Below, in pieces: positions 12,576 to 37,156 of a DNA stretch of 64,000 bases. Under the pieces are notes generated by a model. It saw only the letters and a list, made by a program, of their open reading frames with translations, made no database searches and was not told the DNA's origin. The translations under genes were made by a program, and so were the position numbers. Source of the DNA: Candidatus Moraniibacteriota bacterium (GTDB lineage: Bacteria > Patescibacteriota > Minisyncoccia > Moranbacterales > GCA-2747515); assembly GCA_046116545.1 (NCBI GenBank), contig CP175956.1:77219-141218 (forward strand), written 5' to 3'. How positions within the stretch are numbered: the stretch's first letter is position 1; each line of letters starts with the position of its first letter.

Positions 12576-12680
12576 GTCTTTGCGAGCAACTGTGACTTTT
12601 ATTATGTCTAGCGAAGCAATCTCCACCAGGTTTATTAATATACTCACTAAGATTGCTTCGTCGTACCTCCTCGCAATGAC
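12576..12680. repeat. Palindromic element family A. Its unit II overlaps the 3' end and supplies the stop codon of the GT4 gene.
   Basis: gtctttgcgagcaactgtgac...gcgaagcaatctc / ctaagattgcttcgtcgtacctcctcgcaatgac. On the minus strand, unit II reads ...V S L R G G T T K Q S stop. Confidence 0.8.
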
Positions 12681-13831
12681 ACATTATTATATAGCTCAAC
12701 ATACTCATTTGCCACATTTTCCCAGTTCATTGTCTCCGCTATCAATCTACTTGCATGTCCCATACCATCACATATTTCTGGATTTTCTATTAATATTTTT
12801 AATTTTTCTACGATTGACTGTACATCATTCATTTTTATGAGATAACCATTTTCTCCATTTCTCACAAGCTCCTCCGCTCCACCTGTTGGTGTCATGAGCA
12901 CTGGAAGACCTGATGCCAATGCTTCTAATAAATTATTACTCATTCCTTCATTTAACGATGGCATCACAAATACATCCGCACTATTATAGATACCTGCAGA
13001 TTCTTCCTTTGTATACAATCCACTAAATGTTACTCGTCCATCTAATCTATATTTTTTCACCTGAGCTTTTAACTCTTCCATTGCATTTCCCTCTCCCCCA
13101 GCTATTTGCATTTTGATATGAGGATACATATCAAATAATTCCACAAAAGCATCTATCGCATAATTAAATCCCTTTCGCCTTGATATTCTAGAAGCTAACA
13201 AAATTTTAAATTCTTTTTTTCTATCTTCAACTGTCCTGCTGCTACTACTATAAAAATCTGTATCCACTCCATTAAATATTTGTACAAATTCTTGTTCTGG
13301 CATAGTACTACTAGCAAGCTCTGTAAGACCTTTACTATTTGTTACAACATAATGTGCATCTTTCCATACTTTGTGAATTGTTGGTGTAATGATTTTATAT
13401 AATTTTTTAAATCTTTCACTGTAACCTGGCACATCAGCACCTCGCAGAGATACAATATATGGAATACCATATTTCTTTTTTAATCTTCTTGATATCACAC
13501 CACTAGGCACAGCAAAAAAACTATGCGTCAAATCATAATCATTTCTAGCAATTAATTTTTTGGCAAATTGATATGCCCTAAACGTGTACTTCAATAATTC
13601 TCCTTTTGTTTGATAATTTAAATTATTTGCACTTTTGCCTATTGGAAGTCTATGTATTATTATATTTTCCCCAACTCTCTCTTGCACGTATTCATCTATA
13701 ATTGAAGATGTAACAAGATCAACAAAAACATCATCTCGACGAGAATACTCATCCAAGATGTATTTTGTAGCATTTGCAGCACCACCTCCAAGTGGAGGAT
13801 ATTCATAATTAAAAAATAATACTCTTTTCAT
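12647..13831 (-). CDS. GT4-family (GT-B fold) glycosyltransferase. Its C-terminal 10 aa and stop codon are encoded by a family-A repeat.
   Basis: N-terminal motif FFNYEYPPLGGGAANA, and a C-terminal domain with an E-x7-E-like segment (FVMPSLNEGMSNNLLEALASGLPVL). It ends ...SLRGGTTKQS. Confidence 0.8.
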   Translation of the reverse strand: MKRVLFFNYEYPPLGGGAANATKYILDEYSRRDDVFVDLVTSSIIDEYVQERVGENIIIHRLPIGKSANNLNYQTKGELLKYTFRAYQFAKKLIARNDYDLTHSFFAVPSGVISRRLKKKYGIPYIVSLRGADVPGYSERFKKLYKIITPTIHKVWKDAHYVVTNSKGLTELASSTMPEQEFVQIFNGVDTDFYSSSSRTVEDRKKEFKILLASRISRRKGFNYAIDAFVELFDMYPHIKMQIAGGEGNAMEELKAQVKKYRLDGRVTFSGLYTKEESAGIYNSADVFVMPSLNEGMSNNLLEALASGLPVLMTPTGGAEELVRNGENGYLIKMNDVQSIVEKLKILIENPEICDGMGHASRLIAETMNWENVANEYVELYNNVSLRGGTTKQS

Positions 13832-13858
13832 ACATACAATTATACAACAAAAGAAAAA

Positions 13859-13886
13859 ATACTGGAAACATTTGTGTTTCCAGTAT
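13859..13886 (-). terminator. Hairpin followed by a T-run on the minus strand, downstream of ugd
   Basis: atactggaaaca-tttgt-gtttccagtat, then TTTTTCTTTT on the transcribed (minus) strand. Confidence 0.55.
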
Positions 13887-13897
13887 TTTATTTTATT

Positions 13898-15211
13898 CTA
13901 AAGTTGACCGTGGCCAACATATTTAAATCCTGCCTCCTCCATCTTTTTTGTCCTATACACATTTCTAAAATCAACAAATGCTGGATCTTCATTCATAAGA
14001 TCTTTCAATCTATTTAAATCCAATGCACGAAATTGATTCCATTCAGTCATTAGAACAATACAATCAGCTCCATCGGCCGCATTATACGCATCTGTCGCAT
14101 AATAAGTTTCCTCTGGCAATGAGCTGCGAGCTTCATTCATACCTTTTGGATCATAGACTCTAACTATCGCACCTTTCTCAGCAAGTGTATTAACAATCAA
14201 CACTGCTGCAGAGGCCCGAGTATCATCTGTTTCTGGCTTAAATGTTAAACCTAAAACAGTGATTGTTTTTCCTGCTACATCACCGTCAACAATACTTTTG
14301 ATTTTTTTGATCATTGATGCTTTTTGAGCACTATTTGCCTCAACAGTTGCACTAACAATACGCAAATTACTACCATATTCCTGAGCAATTCGCAAAAGCG
14401 CTAACGTATCTTTGGGAAAGCAAGAGCCGCCATAGCCTGGACCAGGATGTAAAAATTTATCACCAATTCTCCCATCCATGCCCATACCTTTGGCAAGTTT
14501 TAGCACATCAGCACCAACACATTCACAAAGATTAGCCATCTCATTAATAAAGCTAATTTTCATTGCTAAAAAAGCGTTTGATGCATACTTGATTAGCTCT
14601 GCCGTCTCCAAAGTAGTTTCTAAAATTGGTGCCTCTCTGATATACAACGGCTCATAAACATCACACATAATATCAAATGCTTCTTTAGTTTCAGCACCAA
14701 TAACAATCCTGTCTGGCCTCATGAAATCATCAATAGCCGCACCCTCTCGCAAAAATTCTGGATTAGATACCATGTCAAAGTTTGCATTTGGATTTGTGCT
14801 ACTGATTATTCGCTTAACCTGCATTGCCGTCCCTGCTGGAACTGTACTTTTGTTAACTATGACAGTGTAATCCCTGAGATGCGGTGCTATATTCTTAGCT
14901 GCCGCATGTACATAAGACAAATCAGCATATCCATCTCCACGACGACTTGTGGGAGTGCCTACTGCTATAAATATAACATCAGCACCCAGAACTGCCTCTT
15001 CTAATTCAGTCGTGAAAATCAAGCTTTTACCTGCAGAAACTTTGGAAATCAAGACTTCTAACCCTGGCTCATAAATCGGAACTCCTCCACCCTTGAGAAG
15101 TGCCACCCTGTCTTCATCAATATCCACACATGTAACATAATGACCAAGATCAGCAAAACATGCCCCAGTAACAAGTCCAACATAACCAGCGCCTATCATT
15201 GTAATATTCAT
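13898..15211 (-). CDS. ugd: UDP-glucose 6-dehydrogenase
   Basis: N-terminal NAD fold IGAGYVGLVTGACFADLGH, catalytic-cysteine motif GGSCFPKD, and the family's C-terminal domain. Confidence 0.9.
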   Translation of the reverse strand: MNITMIGAGYVGLVTGACFADLGHYVTCVDIDEDRVALLKGGGVPIYEPGLEVLISKVSAGKSLIFTTELEEAVLGADVIFIAVGTPTSRRGDGYADLSYVHAAAKNIAPHLRDYTVIVNKSTVPAGTAMQVKRIISSTNPNANFDMVSNPEFLREGAAIDDFMRPDRIVIGAETKEAFDIMCDVYEPLYIREAPILETTLETAELIKYASNAFLAMKISFINEMANLCECVGADVLKLAKGMGMDGRIGDKFLHPGPGYGGSCFPKDTLALLRIAQEYGSNLRIVSATVEANSAQKASMIKKIKSIVDGDVAGKTITVLGLTFKPETDDTRASAAVLIVNTLAEKGAIVRVYDPKGMNEARSSLPEETYYATDAYNAADGADCIVLMTEWNQFRALDLNRLKDLMNEDPAFVDFRNVYRTKKMEEAGFKYVGHGQL

Positions 15212-15377
15212 TTTCTACTTTCTCCTTTTTTAAATTGAATAGTTACACTTTTAATAAATGCTAACTGTATAATTAAAGAACACATCTCAAAATAAAGATG
15301 TGTCAAAAGTATAACAAAATAGGGAAACTCGTCAATGAAAAATAATCATATATAACTCCGTTCCTTTCTGTGTTTAT

Positions 15378-15543
15378 GTCATTGCGAACAGAGCCCACAT
15401 CATTTGTAACATGTGAAGCAATCTCATTACAATATCTATGTCTTTGCGAACAGAGCCCATGTTCATTATGACATGTGAAGCAATCTCATTGGGTTTATTA
15501 GTTCACTTACTGAGATTGCTTCGTCGTACCTCCTCGCAAAGAC
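15378..15543. repeat. Palindromic element family A. Two tandem unit-I copies are followed by unit II.
   Basis: gtcattgcgaacagagcccacatcatttgtaacatgtgaagcaatctc, then gtctttgcgaacagagcccatgttcattatgacatgtgaagcaatctc, then gagattgcttcgtcgtacctcctcgcaaagac. Confidence 0.8.
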
Positions 15544-15590
15544 GATAGCCTGTGGATAAACTTGAACAGTTATAGAATTATATCCAACCA

Positions 15591-15632
15591 AAACCACCCC
15601 TCAGTCCCCTCCTTAAAAAGGAGGGGAGGTAA
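15591..15632. repeat. Hairpin element family B, part 1 (accacccctcagtcccctccttaaaaaggaggggagg)
   Basis: Near-identical copies lie at 41471..41510 and 45381..45420. A variant lies at 19851..19880. Confidence 0.7.
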
Positions 15633-15635
15633 AAA

Positions 15636-15672
15636 CTAAACTAAACTAAACTAAACTAAACTAAACTAAACA
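15636..15672. repeat. Pentanucleotide microsatellite (ctaaa), about 7 copies
   Basis: Direct tandem ctaaactaaactaaa..., read from the sequence. Confidence 0.85.
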
Positions 15673-15750
15673 GAATAAAACAGAACTAAGCTAAACATAC
15701 ATCATACGCTCCTACAGACTTGTCATTCCAGAAAATATTATTTGTATCCT

Positions 15751-15776
15751 GTAGGGACAGTGCCTTGTGCCTGTCC
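15751..15776. repeat. Family C arm, single copy
   Basis: gtagggacagtgccttgtgcctgtcc, identical to the 9572 arm. Confidence 0.7.
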
Positions 15777-15850
15777 GAGATATTACTTTACAAATAAATT
15801 CATCAGGAATTTACACTATACGATTATTTCAAATCTTTAGTAACATTCAA

Positions 15851-15905
15851 GCCTCTCCCCTTTTTTAAAGGGGGAGATGTCCTAAGGACAGAGGGGGTTC
15901 CACGC
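15851..15905. repeat. Hairpin element family B, part 2 (ctctcccctttttt aaagggggagatgtcctaaggacagagggggtt)
   Basis: Copies lie at 19931..19980 and 41373..41420. Confidence 0.7.
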
Positions 15906-15981
15906 CAACAACTAATAATAAAAAAAGCTACTGTACCTTTTAAAGATACAGTAACTTCAACAAATACAATAACTGATTATT

Positions 15982-16929
15982 CTATAGTTCTACAACATTC
16001 TTAACAGTATAATTCATTCTTTTCTGACCTTTATAATAATTTTTCATTACAATATCTGCAAGAAGTCCAAACACAAAGAACTGTACTCCCAACATTATGA
16101 AAAATGTACCCATAAGTGGCCAGATTCGCTCTGACAATGCAGCGTCAAAAAATACTTTCTCAACACTCATCCATGCAAGAATTGTCATGCCAAAAAATAT
16201 AAACACCATGCCTCCTCCGCCAAAGAAATGTAATGGTCTTGAAGCATACTTACGCCAAAACCAGATTGATATCATATCAACAAACCCCTTCACTGAACGT
16301 TTCCAATTATATTTAGTAACACCCGCAACTCTAGCGTGATGAGAAACCTTCACCTCTCCCACTGTATATCCATCTAATTCTAAAATAGCCGGTATAAAAC
16401 GATGCATTTCTCCAAACAAATCAATTCCTCGAAGTGCATCACCATCATACACCTTTAAACTACAACCAGAATCATGTATAGAATCTTTCAATAATAATTT
16501 TCGAAGCTTGTCAGCTGTTCTAGAAAAGAATTTTTTTGAAAAAGAATCTTTTCTATCAAATCTCCAGCCTGATACAATATCATACCCTTCAGCCTTTTTT
16601 TCTAGTAACTTTCCTATGTCAGCAGGATCATTTTGCAAATCACCATCCATCGTAACAATTACATCACCTACAGATGCCTTGAAGCCAGCATCAAACGCAG
16701 CTGTCTGACCAAAGTTCTTACGCAATTCAATCAATGTTAAATTAGATAAAGACTTACAAATTTCAACAGTCTTATCACAAGAACCATCATCCACAAAAAT
16801 AACCTCGTATGATTTATTCAATCCATCACATGCTTCAACAATTTTCCTGTGTAATTCTGCAACATTTCCTTCCTCATTATAAACAGGAACTACAACTGAT
16901 AACTGTACCTTTTTTTCTGAATTTTCCAT
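15982..16929 (-). CDS. GT2 polyprenol-phosphate glycosyltransferase (DPM1/ArnC/GtrB-like) with C-terminal TM helices
   Basis: Motifs VVVPVYNEEGNV, FVDDGS and MDGDLQND (DxD), plus two C-terminal TM helices. This is the expected partner enzyme for GT-C transferases. Confidence 0.85.
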   Translation of the reverse strand: MENSEKKVQLSVVVPVYNEEGNVAELHRKIVEACDGLNKSYEVIFVDDGSCDKTVEICKSLSNLTLIELRKNFGQTAAFDAGFKASVGDVIVTMDGDLQNDPADIGKLLEKKAEGYDIVSGWRFDRKDSFSKKFFSRTADKLRKLLLKDSIHDSGCSLKVYDGDALRGIDLFGEMHRFIPAILELDGYTVGEVKVSHHARVAGVTKYNWKRSVKGFVDMISIWFWRKYASRPLHFFGGGGMVFIFFGMTILAWMSVEKVFFDAALSERIWPLMGTFFIMLGVQFFVFGLLADIVMKNYYKGQKRMNYTVKNVVEL

Positions 16930-23539: not shown

Positions 23540-23622
23540 AATTTTCCTATCATATTACCTGTCTTTGCGAGGAGCGTTTAGCGACGTGGCAATCTCGACA
23601 ATAATACCACTAAACTCTCTAA

Positions 23623-24765: not shown

Positions 24766-24820
24766 TTATTTATAGTCACTAAAAATATATCTATATCCAA
24801 TAATACTACAATCAACTCCA

Positions 24821-24926: not shown

Positions 24927-24933
24927 CACAAGA

Positions 24934-26346: not shown

Positions 26347-26370
26347 TAATTTTATCTAAAACTATAAAAA

Positions 26371-28464: not shown

Positions 28465-28483
28465 TGATTTATATTTCTAAAAT

Positions 28484-29419
28484 TTAAAGCCAGCTTTTAC
28501 CCTTCTTAAAAAGAAAATATTTAACATATCTAAATGTAAATTTAATACTTTCAACTAAACCATCGTTTTTGTATGTCACTTTTAAAAATTTTAAAAATTC
28601 TTCTAAATTTTTTGGATTTTTATCAATAAGATCTTTATATCTACCATGTTTCTTCTTGAGAATTTCTTGATTTTTTTTCCCCATTTCTTTAATTTCTTCT
28701 TCGGAAAAATGCTTTTTAAATGTCGTTCTATGATTATGAAAAATAAATACATCTTTTGCAAGGTATATTTTGTATCCTTTATCCAATGTTCTTGAACAAT
28801 AATCGTCATCATCACTAAATCCTAATCCATAATCCTCCGAAAGTATGCCAACCGTATTTAACAATTCTTTTTTTATTAATGTACAAAAAAATGCCACATT
28901 TGGATAAACCTCTATTGATTCTCCATTATATTTGTCTTTTATAATTTCTGAATATTTTTCTGGATTATCATTATAATTTGGAAGATTATCAAATTCGTCT
29001 GGCCTTTTTTTACGAAGATTGTTTATATCCTGCCATCCATGACTAGGTGAAGCCAATGGTCCTACAATTCCAATTTTTCTATTTTTAGTAAAAATAGAAA
29101 TCATGCGATTAAGCCAACCCCCATAAACTTCTGTGTCATTATTAAGTAAAACAACATAATCAACATTATCTTCAATTGCTTTTTTCATCCCTTGATTCGT
29201 GCCCTTTACAAAGCCCAGATTTACATTATTTAAAATTGCAATATGCGGCACATTGTTCTCTTTAAGAAAATTTTCAACCATTTCCACTTCTTCTTTTTCT
29301 GAACCATTATCCACCCAAACAATTTTATAATTCTCAGTGTTCTTTAATACACTTTCAAAACAACGTACAGTATAATCTGCATTGTTCCATGTTGGTGTAA
29401 TTATATATGTTTGACTCAT
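28484..29419 (-). CDS. GT2-family glycosyltransferase, paralog group 1
   Basis: YIITPTWNNADYTVRCFESV...VWVDNGS. Same architecture as 22589..23539. Confidence 0.7.
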   Translation of the reverse strand: MSQTYIITPTWNNADYTVRCFESVLKNTENYKIVWVDNGSEKEEVEMVENFLKENNVPHIAILNNVNLGFVKGTNQGMKKAIEDNVDYVVLLNNDTEVYGGWLNRMISIFTKNRKIGIVGPLASPSHGWQDINNLRKKRPDEFDNLPNYNDNPEKYSEIIKDKYNGESIEVYPNVAFFCTLIKKELLNTVGILSEDYGLGFSDDDDYCSRTLDKGYKIYLAKDVFIFHNHRTTFKKHFSEEEIKEMGKKNQEILKKKHGRYKDLIDKNPKNLEEFLKFLKVTYKNDGLVESIKFTFRYVKYFLFKKGKSWL

Positions 29420-29438: not shown

Positions 29439-30188
29439 TTATTTTATGTGACTACTATCATAAAGTTTTTTATCCCATTGAAATTGACTTTCTAGAATAT
29501 CAAAATCAACATTATCATTAATGGTAACAAGTACACGTATTTCAAAAAATACATCAATTTCATCAGGAAATATTATCGACATATCTTTTGGAGGGTGCTT
29601 TTTTGAATCATAATCATGTTCATCTATGTTGGCCATCAATGGATGTATTTTTTCATTAGTTGAATCACAAACTGTCTTAAATCCATACAACGCATATCTA
29701 GAAATTTTATTTGTATACAACATTTTCATAAGTAATTGATGAAATTCTATCGCAAGCATATGATTTGGATGTCCTGTCCAAAAAGACCAATAAAACTTCA
29801 ATCCTTTTGAAAACAAAAAACCATCAGCATCAAAAAATGGTTGCTGAATATAGAAAAAATCACGTGAATTATCTGCTGTAACATCTAATATATTTGCAAC
29901 ATCATCCATATTTGATATATGTTCAAGAAAGTGAGACATAATAGTAAATCTAACTTTATTTTCCAATTGTAAATCAATAACATTCGCGTGAAAAGCATTA
30001 TACCCAGCTTTTTTCATTATAAGAATTTTTGATTGATCAATGTCAATACCAAGTCCATTACCCGAATCTATACAAAAATATTTTTGTGCAAAATCAATAC
30101 TGCCACCCTTACTTGCTCCCAAATCAAGAAACTCTATATTATTTTCTTCAATATATTGATCAATGTCTTTATTTAAATCCATGCCCAT
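29439..30188 (-). CDS. Putative SAM-dependent methyltransferase (FkbM-like)
   Basis: Glycine-rich motif FLDLGASKGGS near the N-terminus. The family call is weak. Confidence 0.4.
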   Translation of the reverse strand: MGMDLNKDIDQYIEENNIEFLDLGASKGGSIDFAQKYFCIDSGNGLGIDIDQSKILIMKKAGYNAFHANVIDLQLENKVRFTIMSHFLEHISNMDDVANILDVTADNSRDFFYIQQPFFDADGFLFSKGLKFYWSFWTGHPNHMLAIEFHQLLMKMLYTNKISRYALYGFKTVCDSTNEKIHPLMANIDEHDYDSKKHPPKDMSIIFPDEIDVFFEIRVLVTINDNVDFDILESQFQWDKKLYDSSHIK

Positions 30189-30193: not shown

Positions 30194-30973
30194 TTATTTT
30201 TTAAAAAAATTCTGAAGTTGTAAGTATCTTCCTCTGATTTTCCAAAATTTTGACTTTTCCATTGTTGTAATTTTTTGCTTTAACATATTAATCTCATGAT
30301 TTTCACGTTGTCCTTCATGATGTGCAACAAAAAAATTTTCATTATCTCGTGCATTGGCATTGATACGATAATAATCTAAATTATTTTTCCAAATTACATA
30401 ATCAAAACTTAATTGATCACGTCTGCTATGTTTTTCAATTTCTCTCCACCAATCTTCATTTATTTTTTTTGTATTTTCTGCTAAATTTCTTCGAAAAACT
30501 ATTGGTGTTTCTGCTAACCCGTTATTCGGTGGATAGCCCTCTTTAATATAAGAAATGATTTGTTTTAACATATCAGCAGGATCATCTTTTGCTCTATAAA
30601 AACATTCAAGCATCTCATCATAAATACAATTTCTTAGTGAGTGTTGGTGTATTGCAACATCATGTTTCTTTAAATACTTATCAATAAGATATTCGATATC
30701 TTCAGTTCGAATCACAACTGATCCATCAATCCACACCACATATTCATATTCTGGAAGGAATTTATGTGTCAATATTTTACGCATCCTAGCATCAAGTGTA
30801 GGATCTGAAAAATAACGATTTTCTAGTCTTACATCAAAAACATCTGAATGAACTGATGCATCATCTGTAAAACAAATAAAATCACAACCTTTTATTTTTT
30901 TAGATGGCTCTTTTATTTTGTCATATCCATCACCAAATACTGCTGTATATATTGCTATTTTATTTTTATTCAT
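30194..30973 (-). CDS. Putative glycosyltransferase of the DUF616-like type
   Basis: N-terminus IAIYTAVFGDGYD...CDFICFTDD resembles the DUF616/TOD1 motif. The C-terminal tail SKFWKIRGRY is shared with the next gene. Confidence 0.4.
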   Translation of the reverse strand: MNKNKIAIYTAVFGDGYDKIKEPSKKIKGCDFICFTDDASVHSDVFDVRLENRYFSDPTLDARMRKILTHKFLPEYEYVVWIDGSVVIRTEDIEYLIDKYLKKHDVAIHQHSLRNCIYDEMLECFYRAKDDPADMLKQIISYIKEGYPPNNGLAETPIVFRRNLAENTKKINEDWWREIEKHSRRDQLSFDYVIWKNNLDYYRINANARDNENFFVAHHEGQRENHEINMLKQKITTMEKSKFWKIRGRYLQLQNFFKK

Positions 30974-30976: not shown

Positions 30977-31861
30977 CTATGCTTTAAACATCTTATTTTT
31001 ATACGCCACATAATGATTTCGTATCTTCCAAAACTTTGATTGTTTAATTATTTGTAATTGGTGATTTTTTTGTTTAATTTCTTGATTTTTTTGTTTAATT
31101 TCTTGATTTTTTTGTTTAATTTCTTGATTTGTTCGCTGTATTTGTGTATTTCTTTTTTTGTGGATCTTTTTTTCTATTTTCAGCATATTAAATGCAAAAC
31201 GATCAGCACGATTTGCATAATACCCTTTTATTTCATCTTGGTTATTAAAGAAAATATCTCGAGATCCATCTTTCATAAATAAAACTCCTAGACCATGCCA
31301 ATGATAAAATTCTATAGTATCATACCTTTCTTTTAATTCATTCCACAATTTATATACACCAAAATCATCTTTTTTTTCATGTATGTCATGAAATAATATA
31401 AGTCCATCTTCCCTAACTTTAGGTAACCATGACTCAAAGTCATGCTTCACTGCCTCATAAGTATGTAATCCATCAATATGTAATATATCTATACTACTAC
31501 TATCAAACTCTTTTAAAGCTTCATCAAAAAATTTACGATGCAACTTTACATCTATTTTGCTATAACTTGCTTTTACTTCTTTTTTAAACACATTAAATAC
31601 CTCATCTTTTTTTTCATATCCTGCTCTAGCATGTGCATCACCTTCCCAAGAATCTACTGCATGCATTTCTGTCCCAAAAGAGTCATCTTTAACTGCCTGA
31701 CACATTGCAAAAAAAGATGCTCCATAATGCGTTCCCAATTCAACAACTCTCTTAGGTTTTACATTTCTAATTAAATCATACGCAAAAAAAGTATGTCCCC
31801 ACCATGTACTTGGAGTTTTACTATCAAATTCAAACTTTGGTTTATAATATTTCCATTTCAT
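30977..31861 (-). CDS. Class I SAM-dependent methyltransferase (Methyltransf_24/CmcI-like) with a C-terminal coiled coil built from QEIKQKN heptad repeats
   Basis: Motifs VVELGTHYGASFFAMCQA, VDSWEGD and ILHIDGLHTYEAV...LILFHDI. The C-terminus has NQEIKQKNQEIKQKNQEIKQKN, then SKFWKIRNHY. Confidence 0.6.
   Translation of the reverse strand: MKWKYYKPKFEFDSKTPSTWWGHTFFAYDLIRNVKPKRVVELGTHYGASFFAMCQAVKDDSFGTEMHAVDSWEGDAHARAGYEKKDEVFNVFKKEVKASYSKIDVKLHRKFFDEALKEFDSSSIDILHIDGLHTYEAVKHDFESWLPKVREDGLILFHDIHEKKDDFGVYKLWNELKERYDTIEFYHWHGLGVLFMKDGSRDIFFNNQDEIKGYYANRADRFAFNMLKIEKKIHKKRNTQIQRTNQEIKQKNQEIKQKNQEIKQKNHQLQIIKQSKFWKIRNHYVAYKNKMFKA
31058..31141. repeat. 21-bp tandem repeat (ttgtttaatttcttgatt ttt), 3-4 copies. 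It encodes the QEIKQKN heptads on the minus strand.
   Basis: Exact direct repeats read from the sequence. The alternate-frame ORF 31058..31282 is an artefact. Confidence 0.85.
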
Positions 31862-31865
31862 AATG

Positions 31866-32744
31866 TTAGTTTACTATAATTATATCATATATTTCAGTAT
31901 GTCTAGGTAAAAAATTCAACTCTTTAATTAATTCATATTCTTTCAATAATTCATCTTTTCTATATAATAATACTCTACAATCTTCTTCAAGAACTCCAGG
32001 ATCAGCAGGATTATTAATTAAACCCGTACTATGAGATCTCTTCCTTCCGCTACTAGTTCCTAAAACTAAATAGTCTTTATTTAAACTCAACCCTCTAGTA
32101 TATCCAACTTTTAATTTTAGCACTTCTGTTTTATTAATTTTTACACTTCTAGACGATGACTCACAATAATACACATTTCTATTTTTAATAAAAACAGAAT
32201 GCGGATGATAAATTTTCTCTATTTTTTTTATTTTCTTGCTTATATTATAAATATACCCATCAGCTGCAGAACTCCATTTTTTTGACTTCTTCATCCCAAA
32301 AGCAGAAACATAAATATCATTATCATATAAAAATATTGAATTTATATGATGAGTATCAATTTCCCCCTTAGAGCCCTCTGGTGACCATTCCTTTCCAATT
32401 AAATCAACTTGCCTACCTTCCTTGTCAAAAGCATACTTAAAAACACTATCATTTCCAGTTGAGACAATATATATACTATCATCTTTTACAGCAATCGAAT
32501 GTGGTGCTAAAAGCTCTACTAACTTTTCATTAAAAATTATTTTTTTGGTTTTTTTGTCAATAATAAATAATCCTTCGTCAACATCTTTTGAAACTGCATA
32601 GAAAAAATCATTATCTTGAGTTATGCCAGTTATGCCTCCACTCTCACCAATAAGGTATTCTTCTTTGCCAGAATCTAAATCCACTAAAAGTAGATTTTTA
32701 CTAAAATTATTTGATTGTTTACAAAAGGATGTCAAAATCTTCAT
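31866..32744 (-). CDS. Hypothetical protein, possibly a beta-propeller-like fold
   Basis: 292 aa with repeated beta-rich segments. No family motif recognised. Confidence 0.35.
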   Translation of the reverse strand: MKILTSFCKQSNNFSKNLLLVDLDSGKEEYLIGESGGITGITQDNDFFYAVSKDVDEGLFIIDKKTKKIIFNEKLVELLAPHSIAVKDDSIYIVSTGNDSVFKYAFDKEGRQVDLIGKEWSPEGSKGEIDTHHINSIFLYDNDIYVSAFGMKKSKKWSSAADGYIYNISKKIKKIEKIYHPHSVFIKNRNVYYCESSSRSVKINKTEVLKLKVGYTRGLSLNKDYLVLGTSSGRKRSHSTGLINNPADPGVLEEDCRVLLYRKDELLKEYELIKELNFLPRHTEIYDIIIVN

Positions 32745-32764: not shown

Positions 32765-33454
32765 TTACATCTTTATATTTTTTCTCTGTGCGCGTAATTC
32801 CAAAGCCTTCCTATAAATTTGCATATCTTTCGCATGAAATCTTTCCACATTCTTTCTAAACTCATCCGAAATATCCTCACTATTCTTTCTATTAACACGC
32901 TCATGATAAACTGACATTTCAACCTTTAAAAAAAATTTTGAAAAATATTTCACATCTTCTTCATAAAATTCAGTAATACCAATAAAATCAAAGTCTTCTA
33001 GCGGAAATTTCCATAAATATTTTGAATAAACATTTCTCAACTCATTGCTAAAGCAGAAATTCTCTAATGACCAATTTTCTTCAATTACTTTCTTGTGTAA
33101 ATTAAAGGATTCATTATAATTATAAGACTTCTGCCAATAATTATAATGTGAAATTAATCGATCTACTGGATTACGCATCCATGTTACAAATTTAACATCT
33201 TCTCCTTTTCTGAATTTAATGGGAAGATATTTAAATGGAAGAAAATGACCGTGAATACATTGAATATTCTGATATTTATTTGAAAAAATATAATTATTAA
33301 AATATGCAATATTTGTCATTCCATGTCTTATTAGTGAAGAGTGCTGCAATGGTGCATCTTTATGATCAATTAATAACTGATTACCAAAATAATCATGTAA
33401 AGATTTTCTAAAGCTACTTCCCGCAGTTTTTGGTAAGTGTAGTGATATTAACAT
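32765..33454 (-). CDS. PAPS-dependent sulfotransferase (Sulfotransfer_2 / HS2ST-like)
   Basis: N-terminal 5'-phosphosulfate-binding-like motif LHLPKTAGSSF (compare PKTASTSF in 2-O-sulfotransferases). An internal IHGHF is present. Immediately adjacent to cysQ and cysC. Confidence 0.6.
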   Translation of the reverse strand: MLISLHLPKTAGSSFRKSLHDYFGNQLLIDHKDAPLQHSSLIRHGMTNIAYFNNYIFSNKYQNIQCIHGHFLPFKYLPIKFRKGEDVKFVTWMRNPVDRLISHYNYWQKSYNYNESFNLHKKVIEENWSLENFCFSNELRNVYSKYLWKFPLEDFDFIGITEFYEEDVKYFSKFFLKVEMSVYHERVNRKNSEDISDEFRKNVERFHAKDMQIYRKALELRAQRKNIKM

Positions 33455-33482
33455 TATTTTTAAAAATTAAAAAATATAATTA

Positions 33483-34283
33483 TTATTTATTTATAAATAC
33501 TCTATTACTTACAATATACCCATTTAATAACATCGTTTCTTTGTTATTATATTTAATTGTACTATTCTGCATATCACAAACATATCCACCCGCTTCCTGT
33601 ATAATGATATCACTTGCGCAAATATCCCACAAGCCACTTTTATTACTTGAATTAATATACAATTCTGCATCACCTACTGCAACTTTACATATTTTAATAC
33701 CAGCTGAACCCATAGGAGCCTGTTTCATATTATTTTTCTCTGCAATTTCTTGTTCATAATCTCCCAAGTGATTTCGACTTACTAGAATTCTGCCATTTTT
33801 CATTGGTTTTTTGCTAGTTGAAATTCTTTTAGGAAGATTCCTGCCTTCGTAGGAATGACAATAGAAAAATGCGCCTTTATTTTTCTCGGCATAATATAAT
33901 TCATTTAATACTGGTGCATACACTATACCAAAAATTGACTCACCCTCCTTATTTACTAATCCAATCATTATTGAAAATTCTCCTGTTTTTTGTATGAAAT
34001 CAGATGTCCCATCTAGTGGATCAATAATCCACACAAAGTTTGCTTTTTTTCTATTTTCAAAATCATCCTCAATCTCTTCACTTAATATTGGATAATTATA
34101 TCTTGATAATTTATCCATCAAAAAATTATTCACTGCAATATCTGCCTCCGTTACAGGTGTTTTGTTTTGTTTTTGTTCTATGGTGTATTCTTTATCATAA
34201 AACTGCATGGCGATGTTACCTGCTTCAATTGCTATTTTTATTATTTCTTGGATATTTATATTGTAATTTTGCATGATTATCAT
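33483..34283 (-). CDS. cysQ: Inositol monophosphatase family protein, probably 3'(2'),5'-bisphosphate nucleotidase (CysQ-like PAP phosphatase)
   Basis: Motifs EEIEDDF...WIIDPLDGTSDF, IVYAPVLNELYYA and GSAGIKICKVAVGDAELY. Genomic context is cysC and a sulfotransferase. Confidence 0.7.
   Translation of the reverse strand: MIIMQNYNINIQEIIKIAIEAGNIAMQFYDKEYTIEQKQNKTPVTEADIAVNNFLMDKLSRYNYPILSEEIEDDFENRKKANFVWIIDPLDGTSDFIQKTGEFSIMIGLVNKEGESIFGIVYAPVLNELYYAEKNKGAFFYCHSYEGRNLPKRISTSKKPMKNGRILVSRNHLGDYEQEIAEKNNMKQAPMGSAGIKICKVAVGDAELYINSSNKSGLWDICASDIIIQEAGGYVCDMQNSTIKYNNKETMLLNGYIVSNRVFINK
33836..33860. repeat. Family-D hairpin (gattcctgccttcgtaggaatgaca) embedded in-frame in the cysQ-like CDS
   Basis: Differs by 1 nt from the copy at 45483..45508 downstream of another gene. 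Encodes HSYEGRN within the CDS. Confidence 0.6.
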
Positions 34284-34328: not shown

Positions 34329-34853
34329 TTATAATTGTTTGTCTATGTAACTTACTATTTTTTGAACGCTTTCTTCTACTGTTTCCTTTTCCGTATTCAC
34401 TATTATTTCTGAATTAACTGGTTTTTCAAATGGGTCTTGTACTCCTGTGAAATCCATTATTTCTCCTTTTTCTGCTTTAGCATACATACCCTTCACATCC
34501 CTCCTTTTACATTCTTCTACACTACACTCTACATACACCTCTATAAAATTTTCACATAAACCTCTCGTAAAATTACGCATTTTTTGATATGGTGATACAA
34601 ATGCTGATACCACATTTACACCATTATCAGATAACATCTGTGCAATATATGATAATCGTTCTATATTTTTATTTCTATCCTCTTTGCTGAAATCTAAATC
34701 ATTACTAATTGTTTCACGTACAATATCACCATCTAATCTTTGAATTGATAAATACTTCTCTTGAAAATATTTTTCAATTTCTTTTGATAGTGTTGTTTTT
34801 CCGCTACAAGGTAATCCAGTAAACCAAATTACTAATCCTTTGTCTTTTTTCAT
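34329..34853 (-). CDS. cysC: Adenylylsulfate (APS) kinase
   Basis: GLVIWFTGLPCSGKTTLSKEI (P-loop), LDGDIVRETISNDLDFSKEDRNKNIERL, and VNVVSAFVSPY. Canonical APS kinase motifs. Confidence 0.9.
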   Translation of the reverse strand: MKKDKGLVIWFTGLPCSGKTTLSKEIEKYFQEKYLSIQRLDGDIVRETISNDLDFSKEDRNKNIERLSYIAQMLSDNGVNVVSAFVSPYQKMRNFTRGLCENFIEVYVECSVEECKRRDVKGMYAKAEKGEIMDFTGVQDPFEKPVNSEIIVNTEKETVEESVQKIVSYIDKQL

Positions 34854-34870: not shown

Positions 34871-34897
34871 AGATTCTCGCCTTCCACGAGAATTACA
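34871..34897. repeat. Family-D-like hairpin downstream of wzt
   Basis: agattctcgccttccacgagaattaca. Confidence 0.45.
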
Positions 34898-34902
34898 GCT
34901 GA

Positions 34903-36318
34903 TTATTTTTTGCTCCATTCGTGTTCAATGCGCATTATTCCTACTCCAGACCCTTTTTGTTTTTTAATTTTGATAATATGATTATTTAGTTCTTTTGTTG
35001 AATTAGAATCCACAATATCATTTTGTCCACTTTTATTTTCAAATAAAACAGCTTTTATATATATTTCCCCCGTGTTAAACATCGTGTTTTTAAAATAAAT
35101 TATAAATACATTTCTATCTTTTTGCCAACTGCAATTAAAATTATCTACATCTGTATTATTACCACACAAAAATACATTTGTTTCATTGTCAAAAATTTGC
35201 ACTGCTTGCACAAGATTATGCTTAATTTTTGAAACTTGCACTTCAATCTCTACAAAAAAATCATCACCCCATGTAATTTCAGTTAATTTATTTCTATCTA
35301 TATCAAAAACCTGTATATCTGTAATTATATTTTCATTTTTCACTTGTCTTTTCATACCACCTCTTAGTGATTTCTCATGTTCCTGCTCTTCTTTTTCAAT
35401 CCGTTCCTTTTTTTCTAATTCTTCACGTTGGTCTTCAGACATATTTTTAATAATATATTCATCACATACATCATTCACATCACCAGAACCAAGTAATTCA
35501 CCCTTATGTAATAATAAAGCTCTATCACAATATTCTCGCACTGTTGCCATACTGTGGGTTACTAATATTACAGTTTTTCCCCTCTCTTTATATCCTCTGA
35601 AAATATCAAGACACTTCTCTTGAAATCTACTATCCCCCACAGCCAATACCTCATCCATAATAAGTATTTCACGATCTGCATGAATTGACACACTGAAAGC
35701 GAGACGAGCCTTCATGCCACTTGAATAATTTTTTAATTGTTCGTCTATAAATTTTTCTAATTCTGCAAATGCGACTATTTCATCAAACTTTTCATCAATT
35801 TGTTTTTTTGTTAAACCTAGTACTGTCGCATTGAGATATATATTGTCTCGTCCTGATAATTCTGGATTAAAACCTATTCCTAGCTCAAGGAATGGTGATA
35901 TCATACCATTTACCTCAATTGATCCAGATGTTGGTTGATAAACACCTGCTAAAATCTTTAACAATGTAGACTTACCTGCCCCATTATGTCCTATAATTCC
36001 CAAAAATTCTCCTTTTTTTACTTCTACTGAAATATCTTTGAGAGCGTAGAATTCTTCATATGTATTTTTTTTCAAAGAATTCACAAAAGCACTTTTCATT
36101 GAATCAATTTTTTTGTGAGGAATTTTAAAGATTTTTGAGACGTTTTTTACTTTTACTGCTATTTCTTTATCTGGCTGAGATTGCTTCGTCGTACCTTCTC
36201 CACCCAGGTGGTCCCTCTCTTGAACAGAGTTCAATTCACCTTGACGCAAAGATGCATCTTTTTTTACTTTGATGCTTTTATCTTTTTTATTTGATTGTTG
36301 GTTATTTTTTTTATTCAT
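34903..36318 (-). CDS. wzt: ABC transporter ATP-binding protein of the Wzt/TagH/KpsT polysaccharide-export type, with a C-terminal substrate-binding (Wzt_C-like) domain. It carries an in-frame 84-nt family-A insertion near the N-terminus.
   Basis: Walker A GHNGAGKST, signature YSSGMKARLAF and Walker B ILIMDEVLAVGD. An extra ~180-aa beta-rich C-terminal domain is present. The N-terminal leader contains SLRQGELNSVQERDHLGGEGTTKQSQP, encoded by repeat A. Confidence 0.8.
   Translation of the reverse strand: MNKKNNQQSNKKDKSIKVKKDASLRQGELNSVQERDHLGGEGTTKQSQPDKEIAVKVKNVSKIFKIPHKKIDSMKSAFVNSLKKNTYEEFYALKDISVEVKKGEFLGIIGHNGAGKSTLLKILAGVYQPTSGSIEVNGMISPFLELGIGFNPELSGRDNIYLNATVLGLTKKQIDEKFDEIVAFAELEKFIDEQLKNYSSGMKARLAFSVSIHADREILIMDEVLAVGDSRFQEKCLDIFRGYKERGKTVILVTHSMATVREYCDRALLLHKGELLGSGDVNDVCDEYIIKNMSEDQREELEKKERIEKEEQEHEKSLRGGMKRQVKNENIITDIQVFDIDRNKLTEITWGDDFFVEIEVQVSKIKHNLVQAVQIFDNETNVFLCGNNTDVDNFNCSWQKDRNVFIIYFKNTMFNTGEIYIKAVLFENKSGQNDIVDSNSTKELNNHIIKIKKQKGSGVGIMRIEHEWSKK
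36177..36251. repeat. Palindromic element family A, long unit II, inserted in-frame in wzt
   Basis: gagattgcttcgtcgtaccttctccacccaggtggtccctctcttgaacagagttcaattcaccttgacgcaaagat. This is the reverse complement of the intergenic copy at 24850..24926. Confidence 0.85.
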
Positions 36319-36328
36319 TGCTTTATAA

Positions 36329-37156
36329 TTATATCTTTTCTGCTACATTTGTGATTAATTTCCTGTATGCCCAAATACTAAATATGAAAAATGCAATAAT
36401 TACACTTATAAACATTGCTATTTGACTCAAATCTGGATAATGATTGTTAAACATTGATTCTTTTGTGAAATGGATGATAAATGCCACTGGATTCAGAAGA
36501 ATAAACTTATGTGTCCACACTGGTAACATTGTCAATGGATATAGAATTGGCAATATATAAAACATAACTCTCAATGCAACTTGCCAGATCATTGCCACAT
36601 CACGAAGATACAAAAGTAATGGCGCTGTAATAAGTGAAAATGACAATATTAGTATATATAACGCTACTGCAAAAGTAATTGAAAGTATGATAGATGCAAT
36701 AGACGGCATAAATTGAAATCCTATGAAAAATGCAATGATGACAATTATATTCATCAGAAATACCATCCCTGTATTTATAGTTGATGCCAGAATAATTGAC
36801 CACCTTGGTACATAAATTTTTGTTACTAATTGTGCTTTACTCTTAAGCGCATTCATACCCGCATTAGTTCCTTCTGAAAAAAATGTAAAAAGCATCAATG
36901 CAACTAGTAATTGCAAAGAATAATTTTCTATTCCACCACCACGAGCACCTGTACCAAACACACCGGAAAAAACAGCTGCCAAAACCAAAAACAAAAGAAG
37001 TGGCTGTAATACCGCCCATACATAACCCAAAACAGATCCTTGATAACGAAGTTTAAAATCCGTTTTAGCAAGCATCCAGATTAGCTCTTTATAATTTTCG
37101 TGTTCTTGTAGTGATTCTTTAATTATTTTCATAAATAAATAGTACAATAAAAACAC
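36329..37156 (-). CDS. wzm: ABC-2 type transporter permease (Wzm/TagG-like)
   Basis: 275 aa with 6 TM helices. Sits immediately upstream of the Wzt ATPase, with overlapping or adjacent arrangement. Confidence 0.75.
   Translation of the reverse strand: MFLLYYLFMKIIKESLQEHENYKELIWMLAKTDFKLRYQGSVLGYVWAVLQPLLLFLVLAAVFSGVFGTGARGGGIENYSLQLLVALMLFTFFSEGTNAGMNALKSKAQLVTKIYVPRWSIILASTINTGMVFLMNIIVIIAFFIGFQFMPSIASIILSITFAVALYILILSFSLITAPLLLYLRDVAMIWQVALRVMFYILPILYPLTMLPVWTHKFILLNPVAFIIHFTKESMFNNHYPDLSQIAMFISVIIAFFIFSIWAYRKLITNVAEKI

What the first reader, a model, noticed from the sequence alone, without database searches (positions are those of the whole stretch)
12647..37156. ABC-transporter-dependent glycan locus with candidate chain-terminating modification enzymes and a Wzt with a C-terminal carbohydrate-binding domain
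Wzt carries the extra C-terminal beta-sandwich-like domain. In characterised systems, such as E. coli O9a and Raoultella O12, that domain recognises a terminal cap (methyl, phosphate, Kdo) on the completed polymer. Immediately upstream lie two methyltransferases and a sulfotransferase. The next step to test is whether sulfate and/or methyl groups serve as the export-licensing terminator. Ugd (UDP-GlcA), six GT2, three GT4/GT-B and a DUF616-like GT supply the polymerisation machinery.
Basis: inference. Interest (0 to 1): 0.6.

Follow-up and report, generated by a model that had tools for sequence, protein, structure and literature searches.

The report
Sulfated surface-glycan export operon with gatekeeper
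A tiny uncultured bacterium (Candidate Phyla Radiation) carries an operon that builds a sulfated, methylated surface sugar polymer. Its export pump has a real "cap-reading" domain, and in relatives that domain type travels with sulfate-activating genes, so a sulfate-containing chain end may be the export ticket, a chemistry not yet shown for this pathway.

Summary
Wzm (36329-37156) and Wzt (34903-36318) head a tightly packed minus-strand operon that runs down to 22589. The Wzt C-terminus (aa 325-471) models confidently (pLDDT 89.6) as a beta-sandwich, and its 17 best PDB matches are all Wzt cap-binding domains. APS kinase and CysQ lie between wzt and the sulfotransferase, and ATP sulfurylase lies at 48093-49214, so the locus carries its own PAPS supply. 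Among 43 related loci, this CBD clade has APS kinase next to wzt in 11 of 12 cases. Other CBD types have it in 1 of 22 informative loci, and NBD similarity does not explain the difference. The TylF-like methyltransferase has WbdD-like terminator architecture: a catalytic domain, a heptad-repeat spacer encoded by a perfect 21-bp x3.3 repeat, and a conserved SKFWKIR tail. In sister loci and in Oceanimonas the same scaffold carries a sulfotransferase instead. Best reading: terminator/CBD-gated export with a cap that includes sulfate, possibly together with methyl. A methyl-only cap remains a serious rival. Corrections: only one GT4 lies in the range, and 12647-16929 is a separate module. The organism is a Moranbacteria MAG, so the product is not LPS.

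The parts
36329..37156 (-). Wzm, ABC-2 permease of the glycan exporter (GTG start)
   Evidence: PF01061 E=3e-13. It is 56-91% identical to Wzm in 9 related CPR loci.
34903..36318 (-). Wzt, 471 aa. It has a Lys/Asn-rich N-terminal tail (aa 1-50), an NBD (aa ~51-288), a charged linker helix (aa 289-324) and a C-terminal CBD.
   Evidence: The NBD matches A. aeolicus Wzt 6amx/8dku at E~4e-68 and TagH/TarH. It is 100% identical to P0001 from a Candidatus Moraniibacteriota MAG.
34906..35346 (-). Wzt carbohydrate-binding domain (aa 325-471), clade A. Signature residues are Q374, N387-N388, W398, N403, H466 and W468.
   Evidence: AF2 pLDDT 89.6. The Foldseek top 17 hits are all Wzt CBDs, E down to 6e-7, TM 0.62-0.75. 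Gln at the position of the A. aeolicus methyl-pocket Leu300 is found in 12/12 clade-A CBDs and 0/33 other CBDs.
34329..34853 (-). APS kinase (CysC), 49 bp after wzt
   Evidence: PF01583 E=9e-53. It is adjacent to wzt in 11/12 clade-A loci and 1/22 informative loci with other CBD types.
33483..34283 (-). CysQ-type 3'(2'),5'-bisphosphate nucleotidase (removes PAP)
   Evidence: PF00459 E=3e-49. The best NCBIfam model is TIGR01331 CysQ at 210 bits, below its cutoff of 228.8.
32765..33454 (-). Small (229 aa) PAPS-type carbohydrate sulfotransferase without a coiled coil
   Evidence: Invariant H6-P8-K9-T10-G12-S14 and R94-P96-R99-S102 in 41 homologues. AF2 pLDDT 92. Best folds are heparan sulfate 2-O- and 6-O-sulfotransferases and SULTs. 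Homologues lie directly after wzt in L076 and near wzt in Oceanimonas L077.
31866..32744 (-). DUF4915/TIGR03032-like protein, probable NHL-type beta-propeller, function unknown
   Evidence: PF16261, 37 bits. The family profile weakly hits the PknD NHL propeller, E=0.005. It is paired with the MT24 gene in WIN, L013 and L078.
30977..31861 (-). TylF/Methyltransf_24 O-methyltransferase with a heptad-repeat helical spacer (aa ~205-274) and an SKFWKIR tail (aa 275-294). It is a WbdD-like terminator candidate.
   Evidence: PF13578 E=1e-27. Sequence. It is 46-48% identical to the MT24-CC(-GT2-GT2) proteins of L013, L018, L032 and L078.
31062..31130 (-). Perfect 21-bp x 3.3 tandem repeat encoding (NQEIKQK)3 inside the spacer of the methyltransferase
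   Evidence: TRF gives 100% matches. Equivalent 21/42-bp repeats occur in the spacers of L004, L007, L013, L014, L018 and L078; those in L004, L007, L014 and L018 are 90-100% identical.
30194..30973 (-). TOD1/MUCI70 (ex-DUF616)-like glycosyltransferase ending in a short helical segment and the same SKFWKIR tail
   Evidence: PF04765 E=1e-18. Motif at aa 241-247.
29439..30188 (-). 249-aa protein, possible class-I SAM methyltransferase (weak)
   Evidence: FtsJ E=0.007 only. 'FLDLGASKGGS' motif. No similarity to the L011 Methyltransf_21 protein. A 53% identical homologue lies next to the TOD1 homologue in L004.
22589..29419 (-). Five GT2 proteins (28484-29419; 26371-28464 with two GT2 domains; 24934-26346 with an unassigned N-half; 23623-24765; 22589-23539). 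These are the likely cytoplasmic polymerising enzymes.
   Evidence: PF00535 hits. Intergenic gaps from wzm to 24934 are 3-49 bp. No terminator-like site above chance.
48093..49214 (-).
   Evidence: PF01747 E=3e-75 plus PUA_2. Sat lies inside the operon in L003 and L007.
45515..46714 (-). GT4-like glycosyltransferase conserved just upstream of wzm in relatives (candidate primer/adaptor GT)
   Evidence: It is 69-78% identical in L002, L003 and L008.
49299..50927 (-). DUF4012 membrane protein, conserved member of the upstream cassette
   Evidence: It is 76-79% identical in L002 and L003. The cassette is 99% identical between the two paralogous copies L003 and L011.
12647..16929 (-). Separate module: GT4 (12647-13831), Ugd (13898-15211), a 770-bp non-coding repeat region, and an ArnC/PgfS-like polyprenyl-phosphate sugar synthase (15982-16929)
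   Evidence: It is separated from the operon by unrelated genes at 17239-22467.

Best explanation
Minus-strand genes 37156 down to 22589, plus Sat at 48093-49214, form an ABC-transporter-dependent system for a cell-surface glycan in a Moranbacteria (CPR) cell.

Proposed steps:
1. GT2 enzymes, and possibly the TOD1-like GT, build the polymer on a lipid carrier in the cytoplasm.
2. Sat, CysC and CysQ supply and recycle PAPS.
3. The small sulfotransferase and the TylF-like methyltransferase modify the polymer.
4. The methyltransferase sits at the far end of a heptad-repeat spacer with a conserved C-terminal tail, like WbdD. It therefore acts on chain ends that have reached a set length.
5. The Wzt C-terminal beta-sandwich reads the finished non-reducing end and licenses export through Wzm.

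I think the feature that this CBD clade reads includes a sulfate group, possibly on a residue that is also methylated.

Shown here: gene identities, the CBD fold, the synteny statistics and the domain architectures.
Inferred: that sulfate is part of the cap, that capping stops polymerisation, and that export depends on it.
For: 1. The CBD fold is confirmed, and close homologues carry PF14524.
2. A complete PAPS pathway is present. The sulfotransferase has both PAPS motifs and the right fold.
3. I ranked 43 CBDs by similarity to this one. The top 12 have cysC starting -13 to +103 bp from the wzt stop in 11 cases. Among the rest it is 1 of 22 informative loci (Fisher p=5e-7). NBD identity overlaps between the two groups, 67-85% vs 63-84%.
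4. One genome carries two paralogous cassettes. Their upstream DNA is 99% identical, and similarity collapses exactly at the NBD/CBD junction. One copy has a clade-A CBD with CysC, Sat and several sulfotransferases. The other has a different CBD with a Methyltransf_21 gene.
5. Three clade-A sister loci carry sulfotransferase-spacer-SSKFW proteins: L003, L014, and L007, where it is fused to a GT4. L007 has the closest informative CBD (53% identical), and the sulfotransferase domain is the only modifying enzyme found in the 10 kb downstream of wzt that was examined.
6. Oceanimonas baumannii has Wzt_C, then a sulfotransferase, then a sulfotransferase-coiled coil-GT4-GT2 protein.
7. According to PMC11231755, the terminator always lies at the distal end of a coiled-coil protein in characterised systems.
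8. The position of the A. aeolicus methyl-pocket Leu300 is Gln in all 12 clade-A CBDs and in none of the 33 other aligned CBDs.
Against: - In this window the spacer-bearing modifying enzyme is the methyltransferase. The window's sulfotransferase has no spacer and no orthologue in the clade-A sister loci.
- L003 has five sulfotransferase-like genes, which suggests in-chain sulfation.
- CBD-less Wzt genes also sit next to or near cysC (L017, L036). Adjacency alone therefore does not prove cap recognition.
- The same sulfotransferase family follows a wzt with a non-clade-A CBD in L076.
- The loci compared are related to each other, so the Fisher test overstates independence.
- The pocket mapping rests on a weak profile alignment (E=0.076).
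- The SKFWKIR tail is not amphipathic by hydrophobic moment.
- No initiating transferase or ligase lies in the window.
Confidence: 0.45

Rival explanations
1. Methyl-only cap. The TylF-like methyltransferase with its spacer is the sole terminator, as in E. coli O8 WbdD or the A. aeolicus 3-O-methyl cap, and the CBD reads a methylated terminal sugar. Sulfation only decorates the chain.
For: - MT24 has the catalytic domain-spacer-tail architecture.
- MT24-CC-GT2-GT2 fusions lie right after wzt in other CPR loci, for example L018 at +10 bp.
- In characterised systems the coiled-coil protein carries the terminator.
- Multiple sulfotransferases in L003 fit in-chain sulfation.
Against: - The CBD clade follows the PAPS genes, not MT24. 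No full-length MT24 homologue was found in the available sequence of L001-L009 or L014.
- Loci with MT24 fusions and no cysC (L018, L032) have unrelated CBDs of 20-33 bits.
- The methyl-pocket Leu is replaced by Gln in this clade.
Confidence: 0.25
2. No cap gating. The CBD binds an internal or generic feature of the polymer, or mainly stabilises the Wzt dimer. Sulfate and methyl are decorations that are not required for export. The wzt-cysC adjacency is inherited operon order in one lineage.
For: - CBD-less Wzt genes lie next to cysC in L017 and near cysC/cysQ in L036.
- In K. pneumoniae O1 the terminal pyruvate is not needed for export (PMC11231755).
- Clade A is narrow, with only 13 representatives at E<=1e-3 in 1.84 billion proteins, so shared ancestry could produce the association.
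Against: - In all characterised Wzt proteins with a CBD the domain is required and cap-specific (PMC9445017; PMC11231755).
- The breakpoint at the NBD/CBD junction between two cassettes in one genome shows that the CBD is inherited with the polymer-specific genes.
- NBD identity does not predict cysC linkage.
Confidence: 0.15
3. Terminal-sugar cap. The TOD1/MUCI70-like GT carries the same short spacer and SKFWKIR tail. It adds a unique terminal residue (as with Kdo added by WbbB or GT137) that is itself the epitope. Methyl and sulfate are then secondary marks on that residue.
For: - The tail and short spacer on the GT are seen.
- A GT4 carries this module in L004.
- TOD1 homologues lie 60 bp after wzt in L021.
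Against: - TOD1 homologues occur with several CBD types and with CBD-less Wzt (L021, L051).
- The spacer is very short (about 25 residues).
- No donor-sugar pathway for an unusual residue is present in the operon.
Confidence: 0.1

Closest known systems
E. coli O9a/O8 (= K. pneumoniae O3/O5) WbdD-WbdA-Wzm/Wzt system
   Same: - ABC-transporter-dependent assembly.
- Wzt has a C-terminal beta-sandwich CBD (2r5o is among the fold hits).
- The modifying enzyme is separated by a helical spacer from a C-terminal interaction region.
- The CBD is inherited with the polymer-specific genes, while the NBD is interchangeable.
   Different: - The host is a CPR bacterium without LPS.
- The methyltransferase belongs to the Methyltransf_24/TylF family, not the WbdD type, and there is no kinase.
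- The spacer is short (~70 aa) and encoded by perfect 21-bp repeats.
- A full PAPS pathway and a sulfotransferase are present.
- The C-terminal tail is not detectably amphipathic.
Raoultella terrigena / K. pneumoniae O12 WbbB (terminator-coiled coil-GT-GT) with a Kdo-binding Wzt CBD
   Same: - It is the best structural match to the CBD (5hno, E=6e-7).
- The cap is anionic.
- Sister loci L007 and Oceanimonas L077 have the same single-polypeptide layout of terminator domain, coiled coil and GT modules.
   Different: - The terminator domain in those sister loci is a sulfotransferase, not a GT99 Kdo transferase.
- In this window the modules are on separate proteins.
- CBD identity is only 12%.
Aquifex aeolicus WzmWzt with a 3-O-methyl-mannose/rhamnose cap (8dky, 8dku)
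   Same: - It is the closest NBD by sequence (E=4e-68).
- The CBD fold match has TM up to 0.75.
- The G-x-N-T motif and strand register are shared.
   Different: Methyl-pocket residue Leu300 is Gln here, and Thr346 is Lys. This CBD clade is linked to PAPS genes.
Gram-positive ABC-dependent wall and S-layer glycans (TagGH teichoic acid export; Geobacillus S-layer glycan with a 2-O-methyl cap made by WsaE). The WsaE comparison is from my own knowledge.
   Same: - The envelope context is monoderm.
- The NBD is nearly as close to TagH/TarH (E~1e-62).
- Methyltransferase-GT-GT fusions in the CPR loci L013 and L018 resemble WsaE.
   Different: - TagH lacks a Wzt_C domain.
- No LCP ligase or S-layer O-oligosaccharyltransferase lies in the window.
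- Sulfation is not a feature of those systems.

Membership tests
Wzt with C-terminal cap-binding CBD (Pfam PF14524 Wzt_C) | Wzt/TagH-type ABC nucleotide-binding domain next to a Wzm ABC-2 permease | tested here: met
   NBD E=4e-68 to A. aeolicus Wzt. Wzm PF01061 lies 10 bp upstream.
Wzt with C-terminal cap-binding CBD (Pfam PF14524 Wzt_C) | C-terminal domain scores above the Pfam Wzt_C gathering threshold | tested here: not met
   24.6 bits vs a cutoff of 30.4. Most homologues at 58-69% identity do pass in the precomputed annotation.
Wzt with C-terminal cap-binding CBD (Pfam PF14524 Wzt_C) | Jelly-roll/beta-sandwich fold of the solved Wzt CBDs | tested here: met
   AF2 pLDDT 89.6. Foldseek ranks 1-17 are all Wzt CBDs (5hno, 8dky, 6o14, 2r5o), probability 1.00.
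Wzt with C-terminal cap-binding CBD (Pfam PF14524 Wzt_C) | Dimer formed by exchange of C-terminal strands; binds the terminal cap; required for export | not testable with these tools
   Only monomer models are available and no coordinates are returned. A C-terminal strand with invariant H466/W468 is present.
Coiled-coil chain terminator (WbdD / WbbB / K. pneumoniae O4, O7 type) | Modifying catalytic domain at the distal (N-terminal) end | tested here: met
   Methyltransf_24 at aa 40-160, E=1e-27.
Coiled-coil chain terminator (WbdD / WbbB / K. pneumoniae O4, O7 type) | Extended coiled-coil molecular ruler | tested here: inconclusive
   A ~70-aa helical, heptad-periodic segment includes (NQEIKQK)3. 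It has only one hydrophobic position per heptad, so it could be a single alpha-helix. No coiled-coil predictor was available. Homologues hit coiled-coil Pfam models.
Coiled-coil chain terminator (WbdD / WbbB / K. pneumoniae O4, O7 type) | C-terminal membrane-associated amphipathic helix / polymerase recruitment site | tested here: inconclusive
   A conserved basic-aromatic SKFW[KQR][ILMA]R tail is present on 10 proteins in 9 loci. Its hydrophobic moment is no higher than in shuffled sequences.
Coiled-coil chain terminator (WbdD / WbbB / K. pneumoniae O4, O7 type) | Caps the non-reducing end and sets chain length | not testable with these tools
   This needs biochemistry or genetics.
PAPS-dependent carbohydrate sulfotransferase | 5'-phosphosulfate and 3'-phosphate binding motifs | tested here: met
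   H6-x-P8-K9-T10-x-G12-x-S14 and R94-x-P96-xx-R99-xx-S102 are invariant in 41 sequences.
PAPS-dependent carbohydrate sulfotransferase | Sulfotransferase fold / family score | tested here: inconclusive
   Fold: best hits are HS 2-OST 4ndz (E=1.8e-4, TM 0.57), HS 6-OST and SULTs, but guanylate kinases are interleaved. Pfam Sulfotransfer_1 scores 21.6 vs 22. No NCBIfam hit.
PAPS-dependent carbohydrate sulfotransferase | PAPS supply available | tested here: met
   Sat, CysC and CysQ are in the window.
LPS O-antigen locus (as in E. coli O9a) | Gram-negative host with a lipid A-core acceptor and a WaaL-type ligase | tested here: not met
   The organism is a Candidatus Moraniibacteriota MAG. No Wzy_C/WaaL, lipid A or Lpt gene is found among the ORFs of >=120 aa in the 64 kb. 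That CPR cells lack an outer membrane is established knowledge and was not tested here.

The most novel reading that the evidence does not exclude
Sulfate is a genuine chain-terminating, export-licensing cap in ABC-transporter-dependent glycan assembly.
- It is installed by sulfotransferases mounted on the same spacer scaffold that elsewhere carries methyltransferases.
- It is read by a dedicated Wzt CBD clade in which the methyl-pocket Leu is replaced by Gln.
- This would be a new termination chemistry, present in CPR bacteria and, with another CBD type, in Oceanimonas.
- The ruler length would be tunable through perfect 21/42-bp in-frame tandem repeats.
Probability: 0.4. Interest if true: 0.75.

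Novelty: new variant of a known kind. Interest (0 to 1): 0.62.

Why it matters
- The terminal caps named in the papers I could read are methyl, methyl-phosphate, Kdo and pyruvate. A sulfate cap would add a new chemistry to that list.
- It would also give a new ligand class for Wzt CBDs.
- It would show that the ruler-and-gatekeeper logic worked out for enterobacterial O antigens also operates in the reduced, uncultured CPR bacteria, whose surface glycans are essentially unknown. A sulfated polyanionic coat could matter for attachment to host cells.
- The Oceanimonas locus offers a cultivable organism in which to test the idea.
- The perfect heptad-coding DNA repeats suggest a simple route to chain-length variation.

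Tried and rejected
- Searching PDB sequences with the CBD alone found nothing. Only the fold search and a family profile (E=0.076) reached the solved CBDs.
- A 20-sequence CBD alignment was too diverse for the genome scan. A 6-sequence alignment gave only 6 loci.
- The exhaustive representative search with the CBD returned 13 hits and no context, so it added little.
- The idea that the SKFWKIR tail is an amphipathic membrane helix was tested by hydrophobic moment against shuffles and is not supported.
- I looked for orthologues of the window's sulfotransferase in the clade-A sister loci and found none.
- I compared the 249-aa protein with the Methyltransf_21 protein of L011 and found no similarity. 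PDB sequence searches for it and for DUF4915 were empty.
- Rfam and tRNA scans of the window were empty.
- The promoter and terminator scans were at chance level.
- Literature searches for a sulfate cap, sulfotransferase terminators, DUF4915 or sulfated glycans in Patescibacteria found nothing relevant.
- Mann, Kimber & Whitfield 2019 (Glycobiology 29:822) surveyed terminator chemistries and may already list sulfotransferase candidates. It is not held in the library.

Full report
**What is there**

The window has low G+C (~31%). Its Wzt is 100% identical to a protein of a Candidatus Moraniibacteriota MAG that lies on a 1.29-Mb contig. The host is therefore a CPR/Patescibacteria bacterium, not an LPS producer.

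On the minus strand a tight gene string runs from wzm (36329-37156) to 22589:
- wzm
- wzt (34903-36318)
- APS kinase cysC (34329-34853)
- cysQ (33483-34283)
- a 229-aa sulfotransferase (32765-33454)
- DUF4915 (31866-32744)
- a Methyltransf_24/TylF methyltransferase (30977-31861)
- a TOD1/MUCI70 (ex-DUF616) GT (30194-30973)
- a 249-aa possible methyltransferase (29439-30188)
- five GT2 proteins

Gaps from wzm down to 24934 are 3-49 bp. ATP sulfurylase lies 11 kb upstream at 48093-49214.

**Corrections to the observation**

- Only one GT4 lies in the stated range. Two more are at 45515 and 54133.
- Genes 17239-22467 (DUF4349, DUF5648-SpoIID, an unknown, a subtilase-DUF5648; three of the four on the + strand) separate the operon from GT4 12647, Ugd 13898 and GT2 15982.
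- GT2 15982 is an ArnC/PgfS-like polyprenyl-phosphate sugar synthase (169 bits, full length). It fits with the four tandem PMT_2 GT-C genes at 911-8781, not with cytoplasmic polymerisation.
- No initiating phosphoglycosyl transferase, LCP ligase or Wzy_C ligase was found in the 64 kb.

**The Wzt C-terminal domain**

- Pfam Wzt_C is below threshold (24.6 vs 30.4 bits), and the domain alone finds no PDB sequence.
- I modelled aa 305-471 with a 74-sequence alignment. The model has pLDDT 89.6 and pTM 0.81 and is an all-beta domain after a linker helix.
- Foldseek against the PDB returns only Wzt CBDs in ranks 1-17: R. terrigena O12 (5hno, E=6e-7), A. aeolicus (8dky/6o14, TM up to 0.75) and E. coli O9a (2r5o).

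**The sulfotransferase**

- Pfam is borderline (21.6 vs 22 bits).
- The protein belongs to a widespread family of ~225-aa 'hypothetical proteins'.
- The family has invariant H-x-P-K-T-x-G-x-S and R-x-P-xx-R-xx-S motifs.
- The model (pLDDT 92) is closest to heparan sulfate 2-O- and 6-O-sulfotransferases and to cytosolic SULTs, although the scores are modest (E=1.8e-4, TM 0.57).

**Comparative test**

I collected 78 related loci. For the 43 loci whose Wzt has a C-terminal extension of at least 120 aa, I ranked the CBDs by BLASTP score against the window's CBD.

- The top 12 (76 bits or more) have cysC starting -13 to +103 bp from the wzt stop in 11 cases. The exception is L009, which has an ORF on the other strand there and only 1.8 kb of sequence downstream.
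- Below 61 bits, cysC is adjacent in 1 of 30 loci. After removing duplicates and contigs too short to judge, this is 1 of 22 (Fisher p=5e-7).
- NBD identity overlaps fully between the two groups (67-85% vs 63-84%). The link is therefore with the CBD, not with overall relatedness. The loci are still not independent samples.
- One genome holds two paralogous cassettes, L003 and L011, on the same 1.55-Mb contig. The 3.5 kb upstream is 99% identical at the DNA level. The wzm gene and the NBD are 72% identical. Similarity collapses at the NBD/CBD junction (about aa 243).
- One copy continues with a clade-A CBD, cysC, cysQ, Sat and several sulfotransferases. The other continues with a different CBD and a Methyltransf_21 gene. 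This mirrors the serotype-specific CBDs of E. coli O8 and O9a.

**Terminator architecture**

- The window's methyltransferase ends in a ~70-aa helical segment followed by SKFWKIRNHYVAYKNKMFKA. The segment contains (NQEIKQK)3, encoded by a perfect 21-bp x3.3 tandem repeat at 31062-31130.
- The TOD1-like GT ends in a shorter helix and SKFWKIRGRYLQ.
- The same spacer-plus-tail module is found on MT24-GT2-GT2 fusions (L013, L018, L032) and on MT24 alone (L078).
- It is found on a GT4 (L004).
- It is also found on sulfotransferases in the clade-A loci L003 (304 aa), L014 (361 aa, right after cysC) and L007 (779 aa: sulfotransferase-spacer-GT4).
- Oceanimonas baumannii, a gamma-proteobacterium, has Wzt_C, then a sulfotransferase, then a 1143-aa sulfotransferase-coiled coil-GT4-GT2 protein. 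Its N-domain is homologous to that of L007 (E=4e-28).
- In characterised systems the terminator sits at the distal end of a coiled-coil ruler protein (PMC11231755; PMC3482155).
- By that rule the methyltransferase is the terminator in this window, and the sulfotransferase is the terminator in L003, L007, L014 and Oceanimonas.
- In seven of the nine CPR spacer-bearing genes examined, the spacer is encoded by 21- or 42-bp tandem repeats. These are 90-100% identical in five of them, with 2.5-5.8 copies. This would allow in-frame changes of ruler length.

**Binding pocket**

- The clade-A profile aligns weakly with the A. aeolicus CBD (E=0.076), and MAFFT reproduces the register.
- The residues that line the 3-O-methyl pocket in A. 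aeolicus are Leu300, Thr346 and Ala348 (PMC9445017). They map to Gln374, Lys422 and Val424 of this Wzt.
- Gln is present at that position in 12/12 clade-A CBDs and in none of the 33 other aligned CBDs, including A. aeolicus.
- Lys/Arg is common at the second position but is not specific to the clade.
- This is suggestive of a polar or anion-binding pocket. It rests on a weak alignment and I had no coordinates to check it.

**Evidence against a sulfate cap**

- The window's sulfotransferase has no spacer and no orthologue in the clade-A sister loci.
- Its homologue in L076 directly follows a wzt whose CBD is not clade A.
- L003 has five sulfotransferase-like genes, which points to in-chain sulfation.
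- CBD-less Wzt genes lie next to cysC (L017) or near cysC/cysQ (L036).
- The SKFWKIR tail is not amphipathic by hydrophobic moment.

**Verdict**

- The 'sulfate and/or methyl cap' idea is now supported by comparative evidence but is not proven.
- I put about 0.45 on a cap that includes sulfate (possibly with methyl), 0.25 on methyl only, 0.15 on no cap gating, and 0.1 on a terminal sugar added by the TOD1-like GT.
- I found no report of a sulfate cap or a sulfotransferase terminator in the searchable library.
- I therefore class this as a new variant of a known kind.

Noticed in passing
window 18334-19842 (+), 20605-22467 (+), 37227-41255 (-); also L001 6464-8599 and L011 3967-5112: DUF5648 occurs at the end of three different secreted enzymes that flank the glycan operon: a SpoIID-like protein, an S8 subtilase, and a 1342-aa GH114-PD40 protein. 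It also occurs next to wzm in relatives. It could be a module that anchors proteins to this surface glycan, as SLH or choline-binding domains do. This was not tested.
   Followed up: no
L001, L002, L004, L005, L009 between wzm and wzt; window 46739-47989: In relatives the wzm-wzt junction is repeatedly interrupted by unrelated genes: 23S-rRNA-IVP protein (L001), AlbA_2/HATPase_c_4 (L004), AlbA_2 fragments plus AAA_14-DUF4143 (L002), AAA_14-like hits (L005) and an uncharacterised ~520-aa ORF (L009). In the window wzm and wzt are adjacent, and an AAA_14-DUF4143 gene sits between the conserved GT4 and Sat instead. This looks like an insertion hot spot.
   Followed up: partly
window 31866-32744; L013 11961-12821; L078 555-1433; L055: DUF4915 (TIGR03032-like, probably an NHL-type beta-propeller with invariant His/Asp/Arg residues) is paired with the MT24 gene. 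In L013 and L078 it lies directly after cysC, and no recognisable sulfotransferase is present in the sequence examined. It may act on, or make, the sulfated substrate.
   Followed up: partly
window 15212-15981: This is a 770-bp stretch without ORFs between Ugd and the ArnC-like GT2. It contains a 62-nt direct repeat (15362-15485, 77% identical), an (AAACT)n run (15633-15672) and higher G+C than its surroundings. Rfam found no match.
   Followed up: partly
window 911-8781, 11171-12112, 15982-16929: Four tandem PMT_2 (GT-C) paralogues, an LPG_synthase_TM-family membrane protein and an ArnC/PgfS-like polyprenyl-phosphate sugar synthase lie here. Together they look like an extracytoplasmic glycosylation system separate from the Wzm/Wzt operon.
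   Followed up: partly
L003 and L011 (same contig ena:ERZ21831104:ctg97414l, 1.35 Mb apart): One CPR genome carries two paralogous DUF4012-IVP-GT4-Wzm-Wzt cassettes. Their upstream DNA is 99% identical, but their CBDs and downstream genes differ: PAPS genes and sulfotransferases in one, a methyltransferase in the other. The cell may therefore make two differently capped glycans.
   Followed up: yes
L077 (Oceanimonas baumannii GCA_048266565.1, JBLWZI010000001.1 414598-435278): A cultivable gamma-proteobacterium has Wzt with Wzt_C, then Sulfotransfer_1, then a 1143-aa sulfotransferase-coiled coil-GT4-GT2 protein. A homologue of the window's small sulfotransferase lies 2.3 kb upstream, directly after a type II secretion (T2SS-type) secretin gene.
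   Followed up: partly
window 26000-34000: G+C drops to 0.28 over the GT and modification genes of the operon, against 0.31-0.34 around it and 0.38 near Ugd. This is consistent with exchange of the polymer-specific part.
   Followed up: no
window 36169-36318 (Wzt aa 1-50): Wzt has a ~50-aa Lys/Asn/Gln-rich N-terminal extension before the NBD. It is absent from the solved Wzt proteins, and homologues vary in overall length (403-526 aa).
   Followed up: no
window 12237-12539 (-): A stand-alone 100-aa GIY-YIG nuclease gene lies between the LPG_synthase_TM gene and the GT4. It may be a mobile element remnant.
   Followed up: no
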